The translations under genes were made by a program, and so were the position numbers. Positions 5,106 through 37,955 of a stretch of DNA of 64,000 nt are shown here, piece after piece; positions within the stretch are counted from its first letter, which is position 1; each line of letters starts with the position of its first letter. Below the pieces are notes generated by a model. That model was not told where the DNA came from and searched no databases. It saw nothing but the letters and a program-made list of their open reading frames with translations. The DNA is from Cyclobacteriaceae bacterium. GTDB lineage: Bacteria; Bacteroidota; Bacteroidia; Cytophagales; Cyclobacteriaceae. Location: positions 48,664-112,663 of the forward strand of contig JAYVBH010000009.1 in NCBI GenBank assembly GCA_043750575.1. The letters run 5' to 3'.

Positions 5106-6056
5106 TCAGGGTTGCTGCAAAGCCTTCTCAATGGCAGGCTTCCCCCACTCCTCTTTCTCCTGGTCGCTCCACAATTCAGGGAAAAAAATAATCTTCTGAA
5201 ACCGTGGTGGGAGATACTTCTGCCAGTTCGTACCACCTGTTGCTTTAATGTCCTCCGGGCTTTTGTGCAAATATCGTCCGGCAGATTTCATGTGCGACAG
5301 CGGCCAAAAGACATTGGCCAGCAAATCAAACTCCCGGAGCACTTTGATGACAGCCGGCTTCCGGTCAAACTTGTTCTTGTAGATCCTCAACAGATTTTTG
5401 TCTGCATGCTCCTTCCCTGTAATCAGAAAATCCGCCATGTACTTGTTCTCAAATTGCTGAAGTGTAAGCGTCTTTTTACCCGACGCCAACTCGGTTGCTC
5501 CACTACGCCAGTATAACTTTTCCAATTGCTGCTCAACCGAACCCGCTGTCAGGGTTGGACGATTCACCGGATCTACCAGGTTGATCATGTCCGTTGATCG
5601 GATTTCAATCAACCTGTATTGTGCTGACTGAAAACCACTGGCTGGCAATAGTGACATTCTGAACATAAGAAACTGCTCCCGCTCCATGCCATCAGACATG
5701 ATATCGAAGCTGCTGCACAGGTTTTCAAAGTAACGTACCATCCGGGTAAGCCGGGCAACAAAAAACTTCTCATCCAGATCGGTTTTGTTGACAACCTGTT
5801 CGATTTCCCAGAGGACGAGGTTAAAATAGAGTTCGGTAATCTGGTGGTAGGCGATAAACACCTTCTCGTCGGGGAACTGGGTTTTGGGATTCTGCAAGCT
5901 CAGCAGCGTGTCCAGGTGGATGTAGTCCCAATAGGTCAGATAGTCTGCGTTGAGTAGCCCATCGAGATAGGACGTCAGGTCCTGGCCCATGACCTCGTAT
6001 TTTTGCTTCAGCTTGGCAAGCAAATCGCCAAGGGCTGGATCGACGGAAGTATCCAT
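5106..6056 (-). CDS. kynA: Tryptophan 2,3-dioxygenase family protein
   Basis: YWDYIHLDTLLSLQ, DEKVFIAYHQITELYF, PASGFQSAQYR, TGGT motifs. Confidence 0.9.
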   Translation of the reverse strand: MDTSVDPALGDLLAKLKQKYEVMGQDLTSYLDGLLNADYLTYWDYIHLDTLLSLQNPKTQFPDEKVFIAYHQITELYFNLVLWEIEQVVNKTDLDEKFFVARLTRMVRYFENLCSSFDIMSDGMEREQFLMFRMSLLPASGFQSAQYRLIEIRSTDMINLVDPVNRPTLTAGSVEQQLEKLYWRSGATELASGKKTLTLQQFENKYMADFLITGKEHADKNLLRIYKNKFDRKPAVIKVLREFDLLANVFWPLSHMKSAGRYLHKSPEDIKATGGTNWQKYLPPRFQKIIFFPELWSDQEKEEWGKPAIEKALQQP

Positions 6057-13115: not shown

Positions 13116-13128
13116 AAAGGCAAAGGTT

Positions 13129-13655
13129 GCCACAGATTTCACAGATTAGCACAGATTGTAAGGTCAGAATATCAACCTCTTGTATTCTAAGCTTTTTCGC
13201 CCAAAATTGACAAGTAAGCCGACTTCACACCCTGAAACCTTCAGGTAGTTGATAGTTTGAGCAATTTGATCATTGACGAGGCCACCTTCTACGGCCTTTA
13301 TTTCAAGAATTATCTTGTCCCTCACCACAAAGTCAGCATAGAACTTGTGCGGGAGGATTGAGTCTTTATACTTTATTGAGTATTGTACCTCTCTGCCGAA
13401 AGTAATTTCCTTTCGCATAAGTTCGAATTGAATTGCATCCTTGTAAACTATCTCGAGGAATCCCTTCCCGAGTGTACGGTGGACATCCATGCAAATCCCA
13501 ATCAAAACATAAGTCTCGTCTTTTAGAGGGAAGTTTATGTCAGTCGATTCAATCGCCATCGCACGCAAGTTCGCGCGATTTAAGCTTGCAACATTATGGT
13601 TAGCCTCCGGAATTCCTGACTAAAAAAATCTGTGCTAATCTGCGTAATCTGTGGC
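13129..13655. mobile_element. Putative mini-element: GxxExxY gene enclosed by 29-bp inverted CACAGATT-triplet arms
   Basis: Left GCCACAGATTTCACAGATTAGCACAGATT (13129-13157); right arm 13627-13655 reverse-complements to GCCACAGATTACGCAGATTAGCACAGATT (27/29 identical). Confidence 0.6.
13164..13559 (-). CDS. GxxExxY protein (PD-(D/E)XK nuclease superfamily)
   Basis: VHRTLGKGFLEIVY (GxxExxY), YADFVV..KIILEIKA, QTINYL, GLLVNFG; likely start ATG 13559. Confidence 0.95.
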   Translation of the reverse strand: MAIESTDINFPLKDETYVLIGICMDVHRTLGKGFLEIVYKDAIQFELMRKEITFGREVQYSIKYKDSILPHKFYADFVVRDKIILEIKAVEGGLVNDQIAQTINYLKVSGCEVGLLVNFGRKSLEYKRLIF

Positions 13656-18235: not shown

Positions 18236-18333
18236 GGGTACTCACCGCAAAGGCGCAAAGCCGCGAAGGACCGCGAAGAATCCTTAGCGGTACTTCGCGG
18301 CTTTGCCCCGGCCTTGTGCCGGGGTGGTTACTC
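18236..18333. repeat. CGCAAAG/CGCGAAG-family palindromic element, copy 1
   Basis: gggtactcaccgcaaaggcgcaaagccgcgaaggaccgcgaagaatccttagcggtacttcgcggctttg...gtggttactc. Confidence 0.75.
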
Positions 18334-19648
18334 GCTCTCCATTTGAAACCATACTCCCCGAATTCACTCCAACACAGTCTTCTGTGATTTGATCGATATG
18401 GATCAATTGCAACGCATTCACTTGCGCCTGCTCCACCGGCACCTTCACCCGCACATAGTTTTCGGTGAAACCGTGAATCATCCCATCTTCAATATCGTTC
18501 TCGAACAATACCGTACGGGTCGTGCCCACGTTCGTTTCATAGAATGCCCTGCGCTTCTTATCTGAAAGAATATGCAGCATGCGTGAACGTTCACTACGAA
18601 CATTCATCGGCACCGGGCTGGGGAGCGTGACGGCCAGCGTATTCTCGCGTTCGGAGTAGGTGAAGACATGCAGGTATGAAATATTGAGCTCGTTGAGGAA
18701 GGTGTAGGTCTCGAGGAACTCGTCGTTCGTCTCACCCGGGAATCCGACAATGACGTCAACACCAATGCACGCTTGGGGCATCTCCGACTTGATTCTCGCC
18801 ACCCGCTCTACGTACAATTCACGCTGATATCTCCGCCGCATCATCTTCAATATCTTATTGGAGCCAGACTGGAGGGGGATGTGGAAGTGTGGGACAAAAC
18901 GGTTGGACTGTGCCACAAACGCAATGATCTCGTTGGTCAGCAAGTTGGGTTCGATGGATGAAATCCTGAATCGCTCAATGCCTTCCACCTGGTCGAGTGC
19001 TTTGATAAGGTCGATGAACCGCTCCTTGCGCTCGCCGCCCTGTAGTCCGAAGTCGCCGGTGTTGACGCCGGTGAGGACGATCTCCCGCACGCCCGTCGCC
19101 GCGATCTCTTGGGCGGTCTTCACGATGTTGGCCACCGTATCACTGCGGCTCCCACCCCGGGCAAGAGGAATGGTGCAGAAGCTGCACGAGTAGTCACATC
19201 CATCCTGCACCTTGAGGAACGTCCGTGTACGGTCCTGCATCGAAAACGATGTGTGAAAGGTATTGACCTGATCGATGTCGCACGAATAGACCACCGGCTT
19301 CGGGGGCCGCACGAACCCATCAAGCAATTCCACCAGCCTGAACTTCTCATTCGCCCCCAACACCGCATCGACACCCGGGATAGCCGATATCGCCTCCGGC
19401 TTCAGCTGGGCATAGCACCCGATGATGGCCACATACGCATCCGGAGATATCGCCCGCGCATCACGCACGATCTTGTGGCACTTCTTATCCGCGTTTTCTG
19501 TAACGGAACAGGTGTTGATGATGAAGATATCCGGCGTATCCGCAAAGTCGACTTTCAAATACCCCTTCTCCTCGAACTTCCGGGAAATGGTGGAGGTTTC
19601 TGAGTAGTTCAGTTTGCAGCCGAGGGTGTAAAAAGCAACCTTCTTCAT
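18284..19648 (-). CDS. mtaB: tRNA t6A37 methylthiotransferase MtaB
   Basis: MKKVAFYTLGCKLNYSET, INTCSVT, radical SAM CDYSCSFC, ISSIEP, HFHIPLQSG; start ATG 19648. Confidence 0.94.
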   Translation of the reverse strand: MKKVAFYTLGCKLNYSETSTISRKFEEKGYLKVDFADTPDIFIINTCSVTENADKKCHKIVRDARAISPDAYVAIIGCYAQLKPEAISAIPGVDAVLGANEKFRLVELLDGFVRPPKPVVYSCDIDQVNTFHTSFSMQDRTRTFLKVQDGCDYSCSFCTIPLARGGSRSDTVANIVKTAQEIAATGVREIVLTGVNTGDFGLQGGERKERFIDLIKALDQVEGIERFRISSIEPNLLTNEIIAFVAQSNRFVPHFHIPLQSGSNKILKMMRRRYQRELYVERVARIKSEMPQACIGVDVIVGFPGETNDEFLETYTFLNELNISYLHVFTYSERENTLAVTLPSPVPMNVRSERSRMLHILSDKKRRAFYETNVGTTRTVLFENDIEDGMIHGFTENYVRVKVPVEQAQVNALQLIHIDQITEDCVGVNSGSMVSNGERVTTPAQGRGKAAKYR

Positions 19649-19656
19649 TGGGAGTG

Positions 19657-19664
19657 CAAAGATA
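19657..19664 (-). promoter_or_regulatory. -7 element TATCTTTG of mtaB
   Basis: Perfect TAnnTTTG 8 nt upstream of ATG. Confidence 0.7.
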
Positions 19665-19710
19665 AGAGGAAAGTGTGTTAAGGGCTTAGTGTAGTTGATC
19701 CCGATAGAGT

Positions 19711-19801
19711 GGGTAACCACCGCTAAGACGCAACGGCGCAAAGGTCCGCGAAGAATTTCTTTGCGGAACTCTGCGTCTCTGTGCCTTTGCAGTGGTAACC
19801 C
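19711..19801. repeat. CGCAAAG-family palindromic element, copy 2
   Basis: gggtaaccaccgctaagacgcaacggcgcaaaggtccgcgaagaatttctttgcggaactctgcgtctctgtgcctttgcagtggtaaccc; aligns to copy 1. Confidence 0.8.
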
Positions 19802-19827
19802 CCTCTCTCCACGAAGCCATCCCCGTG

Positions 19828-19896
19828 CTACTACTACCCCACTATCACCCCATCCCTCATCTCCAACTTCCTATCCGCCATATTGGCAAATTCCTG
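19828..19896 (-). pseudogene. Detached duplicate of the ABC-ATPase 3' end (QEFANMADRKLEMRDGVIVG then three TAG)
   Basis: 47-bp direct repeat 19850-19896 vs 19953-19999 with one synonymous mismatch, continuing in frame to TAG TAG TAG. Confidence 0.75.
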
Positions 19897-19918
19897 CCTA
19901 CGCCAAGGCTTCGGCAGG
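19893..19918. repeat. REP-like palindrome CCTGCCTACGCCAAGGCTTCGGCAGG
   Basis: CCTGCC/GGCAGG stem lying between the two duplicated gene ends. Confidence 0.65.
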
Positions 19919-19930
19919 TGAATCAACGAC

Positions 19931-20590
19931 TTAAGCCTGACCAAGTATTAGTCCATCCCTCATCTCCAACTTCCTGTCCGCCATATTGGCAAATTCCTGG
20001 TTATGCGTGACGATGATAAACGTCTGTCCCATTTTCTCCCGAAGCCGAAAGAAAAGTTCGTGGAGGTCTTTTGCATTCTTGGAGTCGAGGTTTCCGCTGG
20101 GCTCGTCGGCGAGGATAATGTCGGGGCTATTCATGAGCGCGCGGGCGCAGGCCGTACGTTGTTGTTCGCCACCCGACAGCTCTGATGGCTTGTGATCCAG
20201 CCGGTCTTGAAGGCCTAGCTCCACCAGCAACTTGTGTGCGCGGTCCCTCACTTCGGCATCAGGTTTTCCCGACAAGAAACCAGGTATCATCACGTTCTCC
20301 AGCGCTGAAAATTCCGGGAGGAGATTATGAAACTGAAAGACGAAGCCGATGTGGCGGTTTCGGAATGCGGCGAGTGCATTGGAAGTCTGCTGAAAAACAT
20401 TGGTGCCGTTCACGGTAACCGTGCCTTTGTCAGGGTTGTCCAACGTACCCAGGATGTGCAGAAGCGTGCTTTTGCCAGCTCCGGAAGCCCCAACGATGGA
20501 TACGATCTCGCCCTTCTTGACGATCAGATTTACCCCTTTAAGCACCTTCAGGGCCCCGTACGACTTCTCAATACCTTTTGCTTCCAGCAT
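19931..20590 (-). CDS. lolD: ABC transporter ATP-binding protein, LolD-like
   Basis: GASGAGKST, GFVFQFHNLLPEF, LSGGEQQR, ADEPSGNLD, IVTHN. Confidence 0.85.
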   Translation of the reverse strand: MLEAKGIEKSYGALKVLKGVNLIVKKGEIVSIVGASGAGKSTLLHILGTLDNPDKGTVTVNGTNVFQQTSNALAAFRNRHIGFVFQFHNLLPEFSALENVMIPGFLSGKPDAEVRDRAHKLLVELGLQDRLDHKPSELSGGEQQRTACARALMNSPDIILADEPSGNLDSKNAKDLHELFFRLREKMGQTFIIVTHNQEFANMADRKLEMRDGLILGQA

Positions 20591-20650
20591 CCTGCAATTT
20601 CTTGAAATAAAGGTTTAAAAAAAGTAGATTGCTTGCAAAACTTACCCTTT

Positions 20651-21862
20651 ATGAACATTCACGAATACCAGGCTAAAGACTTACTCAAGAAGTTCGGTGT
20701 AGCAGTCCAGGGAGGCATCGTTGCAGACACGCCGGATCGTGCTGTGGCCGCCGCCAAAGAACTACATGCCGAGACGGGAACCAAGTGGTTTGTGGTAAAG
20801 TCGCAGATTCATGCCGGTGGACGCGGTAAGGGCACCGTCAATGAGACTGGCTCTAAAGGAGTCGTTTTGGCGAAAAGCATCGATGAAGTATTTGAGAAAT
20901 CAAAGGCTATCCTGGGCGGCACGCTGGTGACGCACCAGACTGGGCCAGCAGGAAAAAAAGTGAACAAAGTCCTTATCGCCGAGGATGTCTACTATCCGGG
21001 AGAATCAGAGCCGAAGGAGTATTATATGAGCATCCTCCTCGACCGCTCCGTAAGTATGCCCGTGATTATGGCCTCTACTGAAGGCGGAATGAACATTGAG
21101 GATGTGGCCGCCGAAACACCAGAAAAGATCATCAAAGAGTGGGTGGACCCCACTATCGGATTGCAACCATTCCAGGCCCGCAAAGTGGCTTTTGCCCTTG
21201 GCCTGGAGGGGAATGCCTTTAAGGAAATGATAAAGTTTATCAATGCCCTGTACACAGCATACGTAAGCACGGATGCATCGATGTTTGAGATCAACCCGGT
21301 ACTGAAGACCTCAGATAACAAGATTCTCGCTGTTGACGGCAAGGTGAATCTGGATGACAATGCGTTGTATCGTCACAAGGAACTGGCCGAACTGCGTGAT
21401 ATCACGGAAGAGGATCCATTGGAGGTTGAGGCCGGAAAATCAGGATTGAATTACGTGAAACTTGACGGCAACGTAGGTTGTATGGTCAACGGCGCCGGAC
21501 TGGCCATGGCGACCATGGATATCATCAAGATCTCGGGAGGTGAGCCTGCCAACTTCCTGGACGTGGGTGGTGGTGCCAATGCTGAGACTGTCGAGGCCGG
21601 TTTCCGGATCATCTTAAAAGACCCTAATGTCAAGGCCATCCTGATAAACATATTTGGTGGTATAGTCAGGTGCGACCGGGTGGCCAGCGGGGTTGTGGAG
21701 GCCTATAAGAAGGTTGGAAACATCCCTGTACCAATAATTGTGCGTTTGCAGGGCACAAACGCAGAAGAAGGGGCAAAAATCATCCAGCAATCGGGTTTAA
21801 AGGTCTATTCGGCCATCTTACTGAAAGACGCTGCTGAAAAAATCACCCAAGTTTTGGCCTGA
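20651..21862 (+). CDS. sucC: Succinyl-CoA ligase (ADP-forming) beta subunit
   Basis: [54 protein letters not shown]. Confidence 0.97.
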
Positions 21863-34001: not shown

Positions 34002-34099
34002 GGAGTTAGGAGTTGGGTATTGGGTGTTGGGCGTTCGGTGTTGGGAGTTCGGTGTTCGGTGTTCGGTGTTCGGTGTTGGGTATTAGGCGTTAGGTGTTA
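34002..34099. repeat. 14 in-phase heptamers GGNRTTV filling the intergenic gap
   Basis: ggagtta ggagttg ggtattg ggtgttg ggcgttc ggtgttg ggagttc ggtgttc ggtgttc ggtgttc ggtgttg ggtatta ggcgtta ggtgtta. Confidence 0.92.
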
Positions 34100-34707
34100 G
34101 GATTTCCGCGGAAGGGTTGTTCCGTGAGTGAGATGTCTTTTCGGAAGGATAAAAGTAGCACAATGGTTTTAAGAAGAATGCGCAGGTCGAGGATGAAAGA
34201 TTGGTTATTCACGTATTCAACATCGAGCTCGAACTTCTTCTGCCATGAAATGCCATGCCGGCCATTCACCTGCGCCCAGCCGGTGATGCCGGGCTTCATG
34301 GTGTGCCTCCTTCGTTGCTCCTCCGAGTAAAGCGGAAGGTACTCGAGCGGTAACGGCCGGGGACCCACGACAGACATATCCCCCGTGAGAACATTCCAGA
34401 GCTGAGGTAGTTCATCGAGGCTTGTGGTGCGCAGAAAGGAGCCCATCCAGAATTTCCGCTCAGGCAACGGCAGGCTATCATCAGTCGCCAACGTTCTGAA
34501 CTTGTACAACGTGAACGGCTGACCATCCTTGCCCGTTCGCAGCTGTTTGAAGATCATTGGGAAATGGCGTGTGATCAAAAAGGCAAAAGCCGTAGCCAGG
34601 AATAATGGCGACAAGAGGATGATACCCATTGCGGCAGCTATCCGGTCAACGATTGGTTTAACGAAAGACACATATATTCCCGGCATCTGGCTCGAGGGCA
34701 ATGGCAT
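34090..34707 (-). CDS. Priming sugar transferase (PglC-like phosphoglycosyl transferase)
   Basis: KFRTL, LRTTSLDELPQLWNVL.GDMSVVGPRP, KPGITGWAQVNGR; alternative start 34686. Confidence 0.93.
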   Translation of the reverse strand: MPLPSSQMPGIYVSFVKPIVDRIAAAMGIILLSPLFLATAFAFLITRHFPMIFKQLRTGKDGQPFTLYKFRTLATDDSLPLPERKFWMGSFLRTTSLDELPQLWNVLTGDMSVVGPRPLPLEYLPLYSEEQRRRHTMKPGITGWAQVNGRHGISWQKKFELDVEYVNNQSFILDLRILLKTIVLLLSFRKDISLTEQPFRGNPNT

Positions 34708-34763: not shown

Positions 34764-34767
34764 AGTA

Positions 34768-35066
34768 CCCTATGGAATGTCTCACCGGACGGCGTCTCGC
34801 GTTCCGGTGTCCCGCGGCAGCCGCACAAATGCACCGGACGGCGCCTCTACGTTCCGGCAGCCGCACAAAGGCATTTCATCAAGCCGCACACAACACCCTA
34901 TGGAATGTCTCACCAGACGGCGTCTCGCGTTCCGGTGTCCCGCGACAGCCGCACAAATGCACCGGACGGCGTCTCGCGTTCCGGTGTCCCGCAGCAGCCG
35001 CACAAATGCACCGGACGGCGTCTCGCGTTCCGGTGTCCCGCGGCAGCCGTACAAACGTATTTCATT
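34768..35066. repeat. Array of 49-bp hairpin units in two higher-order blocks
   Basis: Unit caccggacggcgtctcgcgttccggtgtcccgcggcagccgcacaaatg at 34783, 34832 (variant), 34911, 34960, 35009; leader ccctatggaatgtct at 34768 and 34896. Confidence 0.93.
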
Positions 35067-35067
35067 A

Positions 35068-36063
35068 TTACGCAGCGACACTATCGGATGAAGCGCCGGA
35101 ATTCTTGACTTGTCTAGCTACCCAACCTCTCACCGCTACGTAGACTAGAAAAAAAACAACCGTAGCCAGAACCGGGAGAAACACCTGCCTCTGGACTAGT
35201 GATCCCACGACAATCACGTTGAACATAACCTGAATACCCCCAAAGAGCAACGCAACCTGCCGGTGCGACCATTTCATTTCATTGGATAGGTATTGAAACA
35301 AATGCGCACGGTGAGGCGTAAAAATGTTTTCTCTTCTTCTGATCCGCAATACAATGGTGACGATCGAATCGGTACCATAAACCAGAAAAACCAAAGGCCA
35401 CAGCAAGTTGTGCGTCACGTGGATCAGCTGGAGCAGTATGAAGATCAACACAAAGGCAATCGTCACGCTCCCCACATCGCCGGCAAAGCATCGCGCCCGG
35501 ACGCGAAAATTGAAAAAGAGAAAGATCACTACAGCGATTGCCATGATGATCAGCAACGAAATATCCGTAAAGGGTTGATAGTAAATCTGAATGTAGCCAA
35601 ACGTTACCAGCGTGACCATGGCATATATCCCCGTAATCCCATTGATCCCGTCCATGAAATTGAACGCATTGAGCGTGCCGACACACATAACCACTGCGAG
35701 AATCAGCAAATATGCAGGCCAATGAATCGGCCAAAGTTGGGCGAACAAGAGCAACACAGCACACAGTTGCACGAGGAAGCGAACAAGGGGATTAAGCGAA
35801 ATGATGTCATCGAAGAAGCTGACCACAGCTATGATAAGCGTACCCGCTGCAAACCATGGCCAGGAAAATCCTGACTGAAGAAACCAAAAAACGATTGCCA
35901 CAAAGAAGATCACCCCTCCCCCTCGAATAACCGGCCTCATATGTGAACTCCGGTCATTTGGATGATCTACGATTCTGAATTTCAGGGCCACACGGAAATA
36001 CAAAAGCTCCGTGGCCAGGAGCCCTGCACCGATCGCCACAAATATCAGCAACTGACTATCCAT
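35068..36063 (-). CDS. MraY/WecA/WbpL-family UndP sugar-1-phosphate transferase
   Basis: DHPNDRSSH..PVIRGGG, SFFDD, NAFNFMDGINGI, FAGDVGS, HRAHLFQ. Confidence 0.92.
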   Translation of the reverse strand: MDSQLLIFVAIGAGLLATELLYFRVALKFRIVDHPNDRSSHMRPVIRGGGVIFFVAIVFWFLQSGFSWPWFAAGTLIIAVVSFFDDIISLNPLVRFLVQLCAVLLLFAQLWPIHWPAYLLILAVVMCVGTLNAFNFMDGINGITGIYAMVTLVTFGYIQIYYQPFTDISLLIIMAIAVVIFLFFNFRVRARCFAGDVGSVTIAFVLIFILLQLIHVTHNLLWPLVFLVYGTDSIVTIVLRIRRRENIFTPHRAHLFQYLSNEMKWSHRQVALLFGGIQVMFNVIVVGSLVQRQVFLPVLATVVFFLVYVAVRGWVARQVKNSGASSDSVAA

Positions 36064-37730: not shown

Positions 37731-37743
37731 TCCGGAACGCGGC

Positions 37744-37955
37744 TAAATGCACTTTGCCACAGATTACACAGATTCACACAGATTATCGGATCAAATTTTT
37801 CTCGGCGTTCTTTGCGCATATTCCTCAGCGACCTCTGCGGTTAAATGCACTTTGCCACAGATTACACGGATTCACACAGATTATCGGATCAAATTCTTCT
37901 CGGCGTCCTTTGCGCCTATTCCTCAGCGGCTCTGCGGCTCTGCGGTTAAATGCAT
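37744..37955. repeat. Tandem 98/105-bp units, each a CACAGATT-triplet arm joined to a CTCTGCG-family arm
   Basis: taaatgca at 37744, 37842, 37947; GCCACAGATTACACAGATTCACACAGATT from 37757 and a 1-mismatch copy from 37855. Confidence 0.92.

What the first reader, a model, noticed from the sequence alone, without database searches (positions are those of the whole stretch)
19828..19999. Ghost 3' end of lolD: a second, codon-conserved C-terminus behind a REP palindrome
Seen: the gene ends QEFANMADRKLEMRDGLILGQA*. A 47-bp repeat 103 bp downstream has only a synonymous GAC/GAT change and continues in frame as QEFANMADRKLEMRDGVIVG followed by TAG TAG TAG. The diverged tails are conservative at protein level (GLILG vs GVIVG). 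A CCTGCCTACGCCAAGGCTTCGGCAGG palindrome lies between the copies. Established: integrative elements supply replacement 3' ends at att sites. Inference: this is a scar of integration or homology-assisted REP insertion that swapped in a tail from a homologous allele.
Basis: partly seen in the sequence, partly recalled or inferred. Interest (0 to 1): 0.66.

Follow-up and report, generated by a model that had tools for sequence, protein, structure and literature searches.

The report
Displaced original end of lolD gene
A 103-base insertion gave the lolD transporter gene a new last seven codons plus a small hairpin and pushed its original end downstream as an untranslated "ghost"; sister strains without the insertion still use such an end, so this is a real but fairly ordinary recombination scar.

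Summary
lolD (19931-20590, minus strand) ends ...QEFANMADRKLEMRDGLILGQA*. Then come 12 nt and a 26-nt imperfect palindrome. Then comes a second copy of the conserved 47 nt (46/47 identical), continuing as GVIVG + TAG TAG TAG.

It is not an assembly artefact. Independent Logan assemblies from six runs in two studies carry the same sequence across both junctions.

The same 56-nt cassette (new tail, linker, hairpin) also sits in a second lolD haplotype (runs X11, X17; synonymous divergence 0.20). There the ghost tail is GIIV* followed by other downstream DNA. That tail and downstream are the working gene end in insert-free alleles (L003; contigs in X13, X14). So the ghost is the displaced native 3' end, and the locus is a 103-bp insertion/duplication polymorphism.

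No integrase, phage or plasmid trace was found, and flanking genes are syntenic housekeeping genes. The hairpin is a single, 5'-truncated copy of a 30-nt hairpin unit found in more than ten phyla. It abuts the ghost with a 4-nt CAGG overlap.

Best reading: recombination within the conserved core, plus one illegitimate joint at the hairpin foot. The cassette can then move between or drop out of alleles through its two core copies. An integrase scar is possible but not shown.

The parts
19931..20590 (-). Working lolD-like ABC ATPase gene (219 aa), ending ...MRDGLILGQA*
   Evidence: ORF list. Best NCBIfam match is LolD TIGR02211, 270.7 bits, below the curated cut-off of 307.75. Thousands of homologues, called 'lipoprotein-releasing system ATP-binding protein' by JGI.
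19953..19999 (-). Upstream ('real') copy of the conserved 47-nt core, CAGGAATTTGCCAATATGGCGGACAGGAAGTTGGAGATGAGGGATGG (codes QEFANMADRKLEMRDG)
   Evidence: The peptide is nearly invariant in the 120 best homologues.
19931..19952 (-). Imported tail: A CTA ATA CTT GGT CAG GCT TAA (..LILGQA*). This is the first part of the 56-nt cassette.
   Evidence: Absent from all insert-free relatives. Present with one synonymous change (CTA>TTA) in the second haplotype in X11 and X17.
19919..19930 (-). 12-nt linker GTCGTTGATTCA between the new stop codon and the hairpin
   Evidence: One difference (19929) in X11 and X17.
19893..19918 (-). 26-nt imperfect palindrome CCTGCCGAAGCCTTGGCGTAGGCAGG. It is a 5'-truncated copy (lacks the leading CCTG) of a 30-nt hairpin unit. 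Its last 4 nt (CAGG, 19893-19896) overlap the ghost core.
   Evidence: Only copy in the window. Family consensus and random flanks. Fold energy -14.7 kcal/mol, z -1.5 here, against -20.8, z -3.1 for the consensus. No Rfam match. No terminator consensus.
19850..19896 (-). Downstream ('ghost') copy of the 47-nt core, 46/47 identical to the real one (GAT for GAC)
   Evidence: In X11 it differs from the window's ghost only at two third-codon positions (19882, 19885).
19828..19849 (-). Ghost tail G GTG ATA GTG GGG TAG TAG TAG (..VIVG***): the displaced former gene end
   Evidence: GAT GGG at the start of the tail is shared with all three closest relatives, whereas the working tail has GAT GGA. In X11 and X17 this position holds GIIV* + agtcgaaagtcg..., identical to L003's working end.
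19712..19800 (-). Second, unrelated 89-nt palindromic element between the ghost and the mtaB promoter region. It is part of the 196 nt that differ wholly from the X11 haplotype.
   Evidence: Fold energy -49.6 kcal/mol, z -8. Extra depth of 20-53 against about 4 in X8 and X9, and related copies in other contexts in X3 and X4. X11 has 106 other letters in place of 19653-19848.
18284..19651 (-). Downstream gene mtaB (tRNA methylthiotransferase), the right-hand conserved flank of the variable spacer
   Evidence: NCBIfam TIGR01579, 406.9 bits, above its cut-off. X11 differs at 1 of 353 nt in its 5' part.

Best explanation
Shown: the locus is a 103-bp insertion/duplication at the 3' end of lolD. The native gene ended with the conserved 47-nt core followed by a short, poorly constrained tail (GVIVG*** in this strain; GIIV* in a sister haplotype). 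A stretch of DNA now lies between the core and that native tail. It consists of another lolD-type tail with its stop codon (..LILGQA*), 12 nt, a truncated copy of a dispersed 30-nt hairpin unit, and a second copy of the core. Translation therefore stops in the new tail. The native end survives just downstream as an untranslated, out-of-frame ghost.

Inferred mechanism:
1. The hairpin/ghost-core junction, with its 4-nt CAGG overlap at the foot of the hairpin, is one illegitimate (microhomology) joint. It formed when a lolD 3' fragment carrying tail' and hairpin recombined with a resident allele. One side used homology inside lolD or the core; the other side used the microhomology. This is recombination of the homology-facilitated illegitimate type.
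2. Once formed, the cassette is flanked on both sides by a sequence that every lolD allele carries. It can therefore be moved into other alleles by recombination in the core, and most easily in its last 16 identical bases. That leaves each recipient's own tail as the ghost. It can also be lost again by recombination between the two copies, which restores the native end.

The new tail is probably functionally neutral. The only likely effect is a hairpin in the lolD 3' untranslated region.
For: - Structure is real and reproducible in independent assemblies from two studies.
- The same cassette, at the same position, is present in a second haplotype. The X11 19.7-kb contig is collinear over 19849-20700 with no gaps and 43 differences.
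- lolD differs between the two haplotypes by 31 synonymous and 2 non-synonymous bases, pS 0.20.
- That haplotype's ghost tail and downstream DNA (ATTATTGTTTAAAGTCGAAAGTCGAAGGTT) match 30/30 the working end of insert-free L003.
- Empty-site alleles exist. X13 (552-nt contig) and X14 have the core followed directly by G ATT ATT GTT TAA AGTCGAAAG.... X13 also holds an occupied allele.
- The closest relatives (82-86% nt in lolD) all lack hairpin and ghost.
- All real-versus-ghost core differences are synonymous third-position variants: 1 in the window, 5 in X11. The same variants segregate among functional alleles (L001, L003). So both copies come from functional coding alleles, not from decay after an in-situ duplication.
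- In X11 the two cores share only the last 16 nt as a long identical block. That places the exchange points there.
- tail' has the lolD family pattern.
- The hairpin is 5'-truncated relative to its family, and the CAGG is shared by hairpin and core.
- No recombinase nearby, and gene order is conserved.
- The lolD-mtaB spacer is a turnover hotspot with a different repeat array in each lineage.
Against: - No donor allele was found with tail' + hairpin but without a ghost.
- Direction cannot be proved. Empty alleles could be ancestral or could be secondary deletions.
- The alternative that the ghost segment was the incoming piece, anchored in mtaB, is not excluded.
- Both exchange points in the X11 haplotype fall in the same 16 nt. 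A single site-specific (Campbell-type) crossover would explain that more simply than two independent homologous exchanges.
- The cassette and ghost core differ by only 5/103 between haplotypes whose synonymous divergence is 0.20. This needs constraint, conversion, or a more recent transfer.
- All population evidence comes from short-read contigs, not raw or long reads.
Confidence: 0.55

Rival explanations
1. Scar of a site-specific integrative element. An element whose attP mimics the last ~70 nt of lolD integrated by a single crossover in the core, supplying a replacement tail (as e14 and phage 21 do at icd). It was later reduced to 56 nt, or it is a tiny att-flanked cassette moved in trans by a recombinase encoded elsewhere.
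For: - Direct repeats of the gene end flank foreign DNA, and the gene stays intact.
- The same cassette is present in two haplotypes, each with its own native tail as ghost.
- An empty site exists.
- In X11 the real core carries host-type variants and the ghost core carries cassette-type variants up to the same point (last 16 nt). One reciprocal crossover predicts exactly this.
Against: - No integrase, excisionase or other element gene at or near the site. Flanks are syntenic housekeeping genes.
- Only 56 nt lie between the repeats. A 103-bp double-stranded circle is physically implausible.
- Two cassette copies about 5% apart would both have had to shrink to the same remnant.
- No lolD-end mimic and no cassette sequence in IMG/VR, phage or plasmid collections.
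- No larger element was seen at the site in any relative fetched.
Confidence: 0.2
2. The ghost is the foreign piece. The working tail GLILGQA* and the hairpin are native. A fragment from another strain (lolD core + tail + spacer + mtaB 5' end) replaced the DNA downstream of the hairpin. It was anchored by homology in mtaB and joined at the CAGG microhomology.
For: - The same illegitimate CAGG joint applies.
- mtaB 5' is 99.7% identical between haplotypes while lolD is 95%, which shows recombination around the spacer.
- The spacer is replaced wholesale between haplotypes.
Against: - No allele with tail' + hairpin but without a ghost has been seen.
- Every insert-free relative and empty allele uses ghost-type tails and GAT GGG rather than GAT GGA.
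- The empty allele in X13 and X14 would then have to be a secondary deletion.
Confidence: 0.12
3. Simple in-situ tandem duplication of the gene end, followed by divergence of the two tails.
For: Head-to-tail geometry with period 103 and a nearly identical 47-nt block.
Against: - Only 47 of 103 nt are shared. The rest of the two 'units' is unrelated.
- Identity falls abruptly from 46/47 in the core to about 16/27 in the tail.
- In X11 the two cores differ at 5 sites, all synonymous allelic variants.
- The ghost tail equals the working tail of other strains.
Confidence: 0.04
4. Assembly artefact: two strain alleles collapsed in tandem.
For: The source is a metagenome-type assembly, and several lolD alleles coexist in the same samples.
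Against: - Independent k=31 Logan assemblies of six runs from two studies reproduce both junctions without a difference.
- The two core copies share no 31-mer (longest identical runs 23 nt), so the repeat cannot mislead that assembler.
- A 5%-diverged copy of the whole structure lies on a 19.7-kb contig at depth 13.6 in another study.
Confidence: 0.02

Closest known systems
Gene 3'-end replacement by integrative elements (e14 and phage 21 at icd in E. coli; tRNA/tmRNA-targeting islands). From my own knowledge, not tested here.
   Same: A duplicated gene end flanks inserted DNA. The inserted copy supplies a slightly different but functional end. The original end remains as a downstream pseudo-end. 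Empty sites exist in relatives.
   Different: Only 56 nt lie between the repeats. There is no integrase or any element gene, and no attP-bearing element was found in the viral, phage or plasmid collections searched.
Homology-facilitated illegitimate recombination, described in naturally transformable bacteria such as Acinetobacter baylyi and Streptococcus pneumoniae (own knowledge)
   Same: One homologous side and one joint at a few bases of GC-rich microhomology (here CAGG). Net gain of foreign DNA next to a conserved anchor gene.
   Different: The donor was not identified. The outcome here is a duplication rather than the more usual replacement or deletion. Nothing is known about transformation in this organism.
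cis-mobilizable elements (CIMEs): att-flanked, integrase-less remnants of integrative elements in streptococci (own knowledge)
   Same: att-like direct repeats around DNA that encodes no recombinase. Possible mobilisation or loss through the repeats.
   Different: CIMEs are kilobases long and derive from identified ICEs. This cassette is 56 nt and no parent element is known.
REPs and other small palindromic repeats, including intragenic ones (Di Nocera et al. 2013, PMC3733652; Rickettsia palindromic elements)
   Same: A short imperfect palindrome just downstream of a gene. Members of the same hairpin family also occur inside genes in frame, as that paper reports for some REPs.
   Different: Single copy in 64 kb. 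No unpaired terminal GTAG or CGTC tag. The same 30-nt sequence occurs in more than ten phyla, whereas most REP families are species- or genus-specific. No RAYT link was tested.

Membership tests
Integrative-element att scar (tyrosine or serine recombinase) | Direct repeats (attL/attR) of the target flank the inserted DNA | tested here: met
   47-nt repeats, 46/47 identical, flank 56 nt.
Integrative-element att scar (tyrosine or serine recombinase) | Integrase or other element genes lie between or beside the att sites | tested here: not met
   56 nt with no ORF. Neighbours are pgm, a DinB-family gene, mtaB, sucC, DUF6089 and a CapD-like gene, syntenic with relatives.
Integrative-element att scar (tyrosine or serine recombinase) | A free element (phage, ICE or plasmid) carries the matching attP | tested here: not met
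   No match to the back-translated core or to the cassette in IMG/VR, the phage collection or the plasmid collection. Genome and metagenome collections could not be rescanned for this.
Integrative-element att scar (tyrosine or serine recombinase) | An unoccupied site exists in related genomes | tested here: met
   L003/L004/L005, L001 and L006. Empty allele with the same tail and downstream DNA in X13 and X14.
REP (repetitive extragenic palindrome, RAYT-associated) | 20-40-nt imperfect palindrome | tested here: met
   26 nt here; the family unit is 30 nt.
REP (repetitive extragenic palindrome, RAYT-associated) | High copy number within the genome | tested here: inconclusive
   One copy in the 64-kb window. 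The rest of the genome is not available. A 74-nt contig with two tandem copies exists in the same metagenome, X3.
REP (repetitive extragenic palindrome, RAYT-associated) | Unpaired GTAG (or CGTC) tag at one end of the stem-loop (PMC3733652) | tested here: not met
   GTAG lies inside the 3' arm, and most family members have GCAG there.
REP (repetitive extragenic palindrome, RAYT-associated) | An associated RAYT transposase gene | not tested
   The genomes holding the hairpin were not screened for RAYT genes.
Homology-facilitated illegitimate recombination product | A joint at a short microhomology on one side and uninterrupted homology on the other | tested here: met
   CAGG is shared by the hairpin's 3' foot and the first codons of the core. 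On the left, the lolD reading frame runs on without interruption.
Homology-facilitated illegitimate recombination product | An identifiable donor sequence | tested here: not met
   No lolD with tail GLILGQA apart from this one in the 5.8-billion-protein index. No lolD-linked hairpin in JGI metagenomes.
Tandem duplication | The two units are alike over their whole length | tested here: not met
   Only 47 (66 at 86% identity) of 103 nt are alike.
Diversity-generating retroelement (VR/TR pair) | Differences confined to template adenines, and a reverse transcriptase nearby | tested here: not met
   The differences are C/T in the core and a wholesale change in the tail. No RT among the neighbouring genes.

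The most novel reading that the evidence does not exclude
The 103-bp unit may be a self-propagating 3'-end replacement cassette. It is a tiny piece of DNA that carries a substitute gene tail, a hairpin and a copy of the gene's own most conserved segment. It could therefore enter any lolD allele by one crossover in a 16-47-nt site, and leave again, without encoding any enzyme. It might use a trans-acting recombinase or single-strand mechanism tied to the hairpin. That hairpin belongs to an apparently undescribed 30-nt palindromic unit that is stop-free in all six frames, has the same sequence in more than ten phyla, and can sit in frame inside essential genes.
Probability: 0.15. Interest if true: 0.7.

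Novelty: new member of a known kind. Interest (0 to 1): 0.4.

Why it matters
It is a clean natural example of how the unconstrained last codons of an essential gene get overwritten while the old end is kept beside it. Occupied and empty alleles coexist in the same sediments. This shows that duplicated gene ends need not mean a prophage or island, and it warns annotators that such ghosts are real.

The side observation may matter more. A 30-nt hairpin unit with the same sequence occurs across many phyla, sometimes in frame inside conserved enzymes. If it proves mobile, it would be among the smallest mobile sequences known.

Tried and rejected
- Assembly collapse: rejected.
- Simple tandem duplication: rejected.
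- DGR VR/TR pair: rejected. The differences are not adenine-specific and there is no RT.
- Known RNA family at the hairpin or ghost: none. Only sub-threshold miRNA/snoRNA noise on the neighbouring long palindrome.
- Intrinsic terminator or sigma-70 promoter consensus at the hairpin: none.
- Paralogue in the window as the source of the new tail: none.
- Flanking duplications as a general feature of the hairpin family: none apart from one tandem array.
- Literature search for the hairpin sequence: no paper holds it.
- Search with the last 40 residues to find the donor tail: only two fragments, uninformative.
- Look-up of the window's MtaB to fetch the X11 contig: not on record.
- k-mer search for runs holding the cassette alone: returned only the runs of this strain.
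- An empty-site allele with this strain's own GVIVG*** tail was not found. X9 holds the ghost tail and downstream at 98.6% identity, but the contig ends at the core boundary.

Full report
**1. What is in the sequence**

On the minus strand, an ABC ATPase gene of the LolD type occupies 19931-20590 (219 aa). Its best NCBIfam match is LolD TIGR02211, below the curated cut-off, and JGI names its homologues 'lipoprotein-releasing system ATP-binding protein'. It ends ...THNQEFANMADRKLEMRDGLILGQA*.

Reading on in gene sense, the following parts come in order:
- the stop codon TAA (19931-19933);
- a 12-nt linker, GTCGTTGATTCA (19919-19930);
- a 26-nt imperfect palindrome, CCTGCCGAAGCCTTGGCGTAGGCAGG (19893-19918);
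- overlapping its last four bases, a second copy of the 47 nt that code for QEFANMADRKLEMRDG (19850-19896);
- G GTG ATA GTG GGG TAG TAG TAG, down to 19828.

The two 47-nt blocks (19953-19999 and 19850-19896) differ at one synonymous base, GAC versus GAT, and the start-to-start spacing is 103. After the block, identity falls to about 16/27.

The ghost is in the +1 frame relative to lolD, because 103 = 3x34+1.

The next gene downstream is mtaB (18284-19651). Homologues place the organism in Cyclobacteriaceae/Cytophagales.

**2. It is real**

- Logan contigs from runs X1 and X2 (study P1) cover 19500-20300 without a difference.
- In study P2, runs X3-X6 hold pieces across both junctions. One is a 382-nt contig over 19760-20030 with no difference.
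- The two core copies share no 31-mer, because the single mismatch splits them into runs of 23 nt. A k=31 assembler therefore cannot have been misled by the repeat.
- The 'two alleles collapsed in tandem' test fails.

**3. Which end is the original**

The core peptide is nearly invariant in the 120 best homologues. What follows it is short and variable.

The three closest relatives are 92-94% identical in protein and 82-86% identical in lolD DNA. They have no hairpin and no second core. Their tails are:
- GIISA* (L001)
- GIIV* (L003)
- GVVLGDGVS* (L006)

All three continue GAT GGG after the core, as the ghost does. The working tail has GAT GGA.

The decisive evidence comes from other metagenomes.
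- In run X11, a 19,676-nt contig is collinear with window 19849-20700, with no gaps and 43 differences. It therefore carries ghost core, hairpin, linker, new tail, real core and lolD in the same arrangement.
- Beyond the ghost core that contig reads G ATT ATT GTT TAA AGTCGAAAGTCGAAGGTT. This matches 30/30 the working gene end and downstream DNA of insert-free L003.
- X17, from another study, shows the same cassette and the same GIIV* ghost tail, with a slightly different downstream.
- In X13 (a 552-nt contig) and X14, the core is followed directly by G ATT ATT GTT TAA AGTCGAAAG..., with no new tail and no hairpin. This is an empty-site allele. X13 also holds an occupied allele.

So the ghost-type tail is what insert-free strains translate. 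The tail GLILGQA occurs only together with the hairpin and a ghost. The ghost is the displaced native end, and the locus is a 103-bp insertion/duplication polymorphism.

**4. History as far as it can be read**

I rebuilt the X11 lolD from the listed differences. Compared with the window it has 31 synonymous and 2 non-synonymous base changes (one residue, K171R). That gives pS = 0.20.

Other segments diverge very differently between the two haplotypes:

| Segment | Differences |
|---|---|
| mtaB 5' part | 1 of 353 |
| Between ghost core and mtaB | unrelated: 196 nt here, 106 nt in X11 |
| 56-nt cassette | 3 (19900, 19929, 19951) |
| Ghost core | 2 (19882, 19885), both third-codon positions |
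| Real core | 4, all synonymous |

Within X11 the two cores differ at five positions. All five are synonymous variants that also segregate among functional alleles: GCT AAC and AGA AAA CTG as in L001, and AAA as in L003. Both copies therefore descend from functional coding alleles. They do not come from an in-situ duplication that later decayed.

The only long block shared by the two X11 cores is the last 16 nt, TGGAGATGAGGGATGG. The real core carries host-type variants, and the ghost core cassette-type variants, right up to that block. The exchanges that built or moved the structure map there.

The lolD-mtaB spacer is a turnover hotspot in this clade. Each lineage has its own array of 7-nt 'words' or palindromes directly after the stop. 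The window has an extra 89-nt palindrome at 19712-19800 (fold energy -49.6 kcal/mol, z -8). That palindrome is multicopy in other metagenomes.

**5. The palindrome**

It occurs once in the 64-kb window. However, a degenerate pattern of it hits 88 stretches in GTDB genomes, against about 1 expected by my own estimate. It also gives 45 GATGG-linked hits in JGI metagenomes and 5 viral contigs.

The hits come from Patescibacteria, Saccharibacteria, WOR-3, Planctomycetota, Verrucomicrobiota, Omnitrophota, Saprospiraceae, Chitinophagaceae, Proteobacteria and others. Some genomes hold several copies.

Aligning 118 distinct instances gives a conserved unit of 30 nt, CCTGCCTGCCGAAGCCTYGGCGYAGGCAGG, usually preceded by G, with random flanks. 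It folds as a 12-bp stem with a 2-nt bulge (fold energy -20.8 kcal/mol, z -3.1).

The window copy lacks the first CCTG. It folds weakly in a shifted register (-14.7 kcal/mol, z -1.5). It is a 5'-truncated copy.

The unit has no stop codon in any of the six frames (my translation). In some genomes it lies in frame inside real genes:
- an M32 carboxypeptidase, where it adds 11 residues (AYAEASAGRPG) relative to the Thermus enzyme;
- an IleRS, between the anticodon-binding domain and the zinc finger;
- an amidase.

No Rfam family matches it, and no paper holds the sequence. It does not fit the GTAG/CGTC-tagged REP definition of PMC3733652.

No other copy has duplicated flanks, apart from one tandem array. 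The gene-end duplication is therefore a property of this lolD locus and not of the hairpin family.

**6. Mechanism**

Shown:
- A foreign 56 nt plus a second core lie between the native core and the native tail.
- Occupied and empty alleles coexist.
- The cassette sits in at least two lolD haplotypes, each with a different native ghost tail.
- No recombinase gene lies nearby.
- The cassette and the lolD-end mimic are absent from the viral, phage and plasmid collections.

Inferred:
- The hairpin/core junction, with CAGG shared by both partners and a truncated hairpin, is an illegitimate microhomology joint made once. On the other side, a lolD-type fragment (tail' has the family pattern DG-hydrophobic-I/L-hydrophobic-G) recombined with a resident allele through homology.
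- Afterwards the cassette is bracketed by a sequence present in every lolD allele. It can be transferred into other alleles, or lost, by recombination in the core.

I give this composite reading 0.55.

It would explain more simply why both exchange points in X11 fall in the same 16 nt, and why each haplotype keeps its own tail. But it lacks any element, integrase or attP. It also requires a 103-bp unit to behave as an integrating molecule, or two diverged elements to shrink to the same remnant.

A mirror-image scenario is not excluded (0.12). In it the ghost is the incoming piece, anchored in mtaB. It is disfavoured because no tail'-only allele exists and all insert-free alleles use ghost-type tails.

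In-situ tandem duplication and assembly artefact are contradicted.

**7. Novelty and interest**

Displaced gene ends are well known next to integrated elements. Illegitimate, microhomology-mediated insertions are also known. This is a new, unusually small and well-documented member of that kind, with a natural empty/occupied polymorphism. It is of moderate interest.

The more unusual item is the cross-phylum 30-nt hairpin unit seen in passing. I could not tie it to any described family with the tools available.

Noticed in passing
window 19893-19918; loci L008-L145 (e.g. L059:4970-4995, L070:3154-3179, L058:2189-2214, L071:2965-3151): A 30-nt hairpin unit, CCTGCCTGCCGAAGCCTYGGCGYAGGCAGG, occurs with the same sequence and random flanks in MAGs of more than ten phyla and in 5 viral contigs. 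Some genomes hold several copies, and it is often set among 7-8-nt 'word' arrays. It has no stop in any frame. It sits in frame inside an M32 carboxypeptidase (an 11-aa insert relative to the Thermus enzyme), an IleRS and an amidase. No Rfam family and no paper matches it.
   Followed up: partly
window 19712-19800: An 89-nt near-perfect palindrome (fold energy -49.6 kcal/mol, z -8) lies between the ghost and the mtaB promoter region. Extra depth in X8 and X9, and related copies in other contexts in X3 and X4, suggest a dispersed MITE/REP-like element. It is absent from the X11 haplotype.
   Followed up: partly
L003:2203-2293; L146:2164-2262; L147:2167-2330; L001:3655-3805 and 5153-5365: In relatives, the DNA straight after the lolD stop is filled with lineage-specific tandem arrays of 7-nt 'words' (GTCGAAA/GGTTGAA, GTTCAAC, TTGGCTA...). 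These are partly arranged as inverted arrays around the mtaB promoter-like TAnnTTTG. Each lineage has a different word.
   Followed up: no
window 34002-34106; 13127-13166; 37739-37928: Further word-type repeats in the window: a period-7 array (GGTGTTS...), and CACAGATT-type triplets inside a 98-nt tandem duplicate.
   Followed up: no
window 34767-35073: A tandem array with a 49-nt period (and one 128-nt spacing) of a GC-rich unit that contains its own inverted repeat (CACCGGACGGCGTCTCGCGTTCCGGTG).
   Followed up: no
L001:3806-5152 and L002:845-2191: In the 94%-identical relative (GCA_031384895.1), mtaB alone is inverted relative to lolD and the DinB-family gene. The inverted segment is bounded by word-repeat spacers.
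   Followed up: no
window 19300-19652 versus 19849-20700 in run X11: Sharp mosaic between two co-occurring haplotypes: mtaB 5' is 99.7% identical, the spacer is unrelated, and lolD is 95% identical (pS 0.20). This indicates frequent recombination with breakpoints at the spacer edges.
   Followed up: partly
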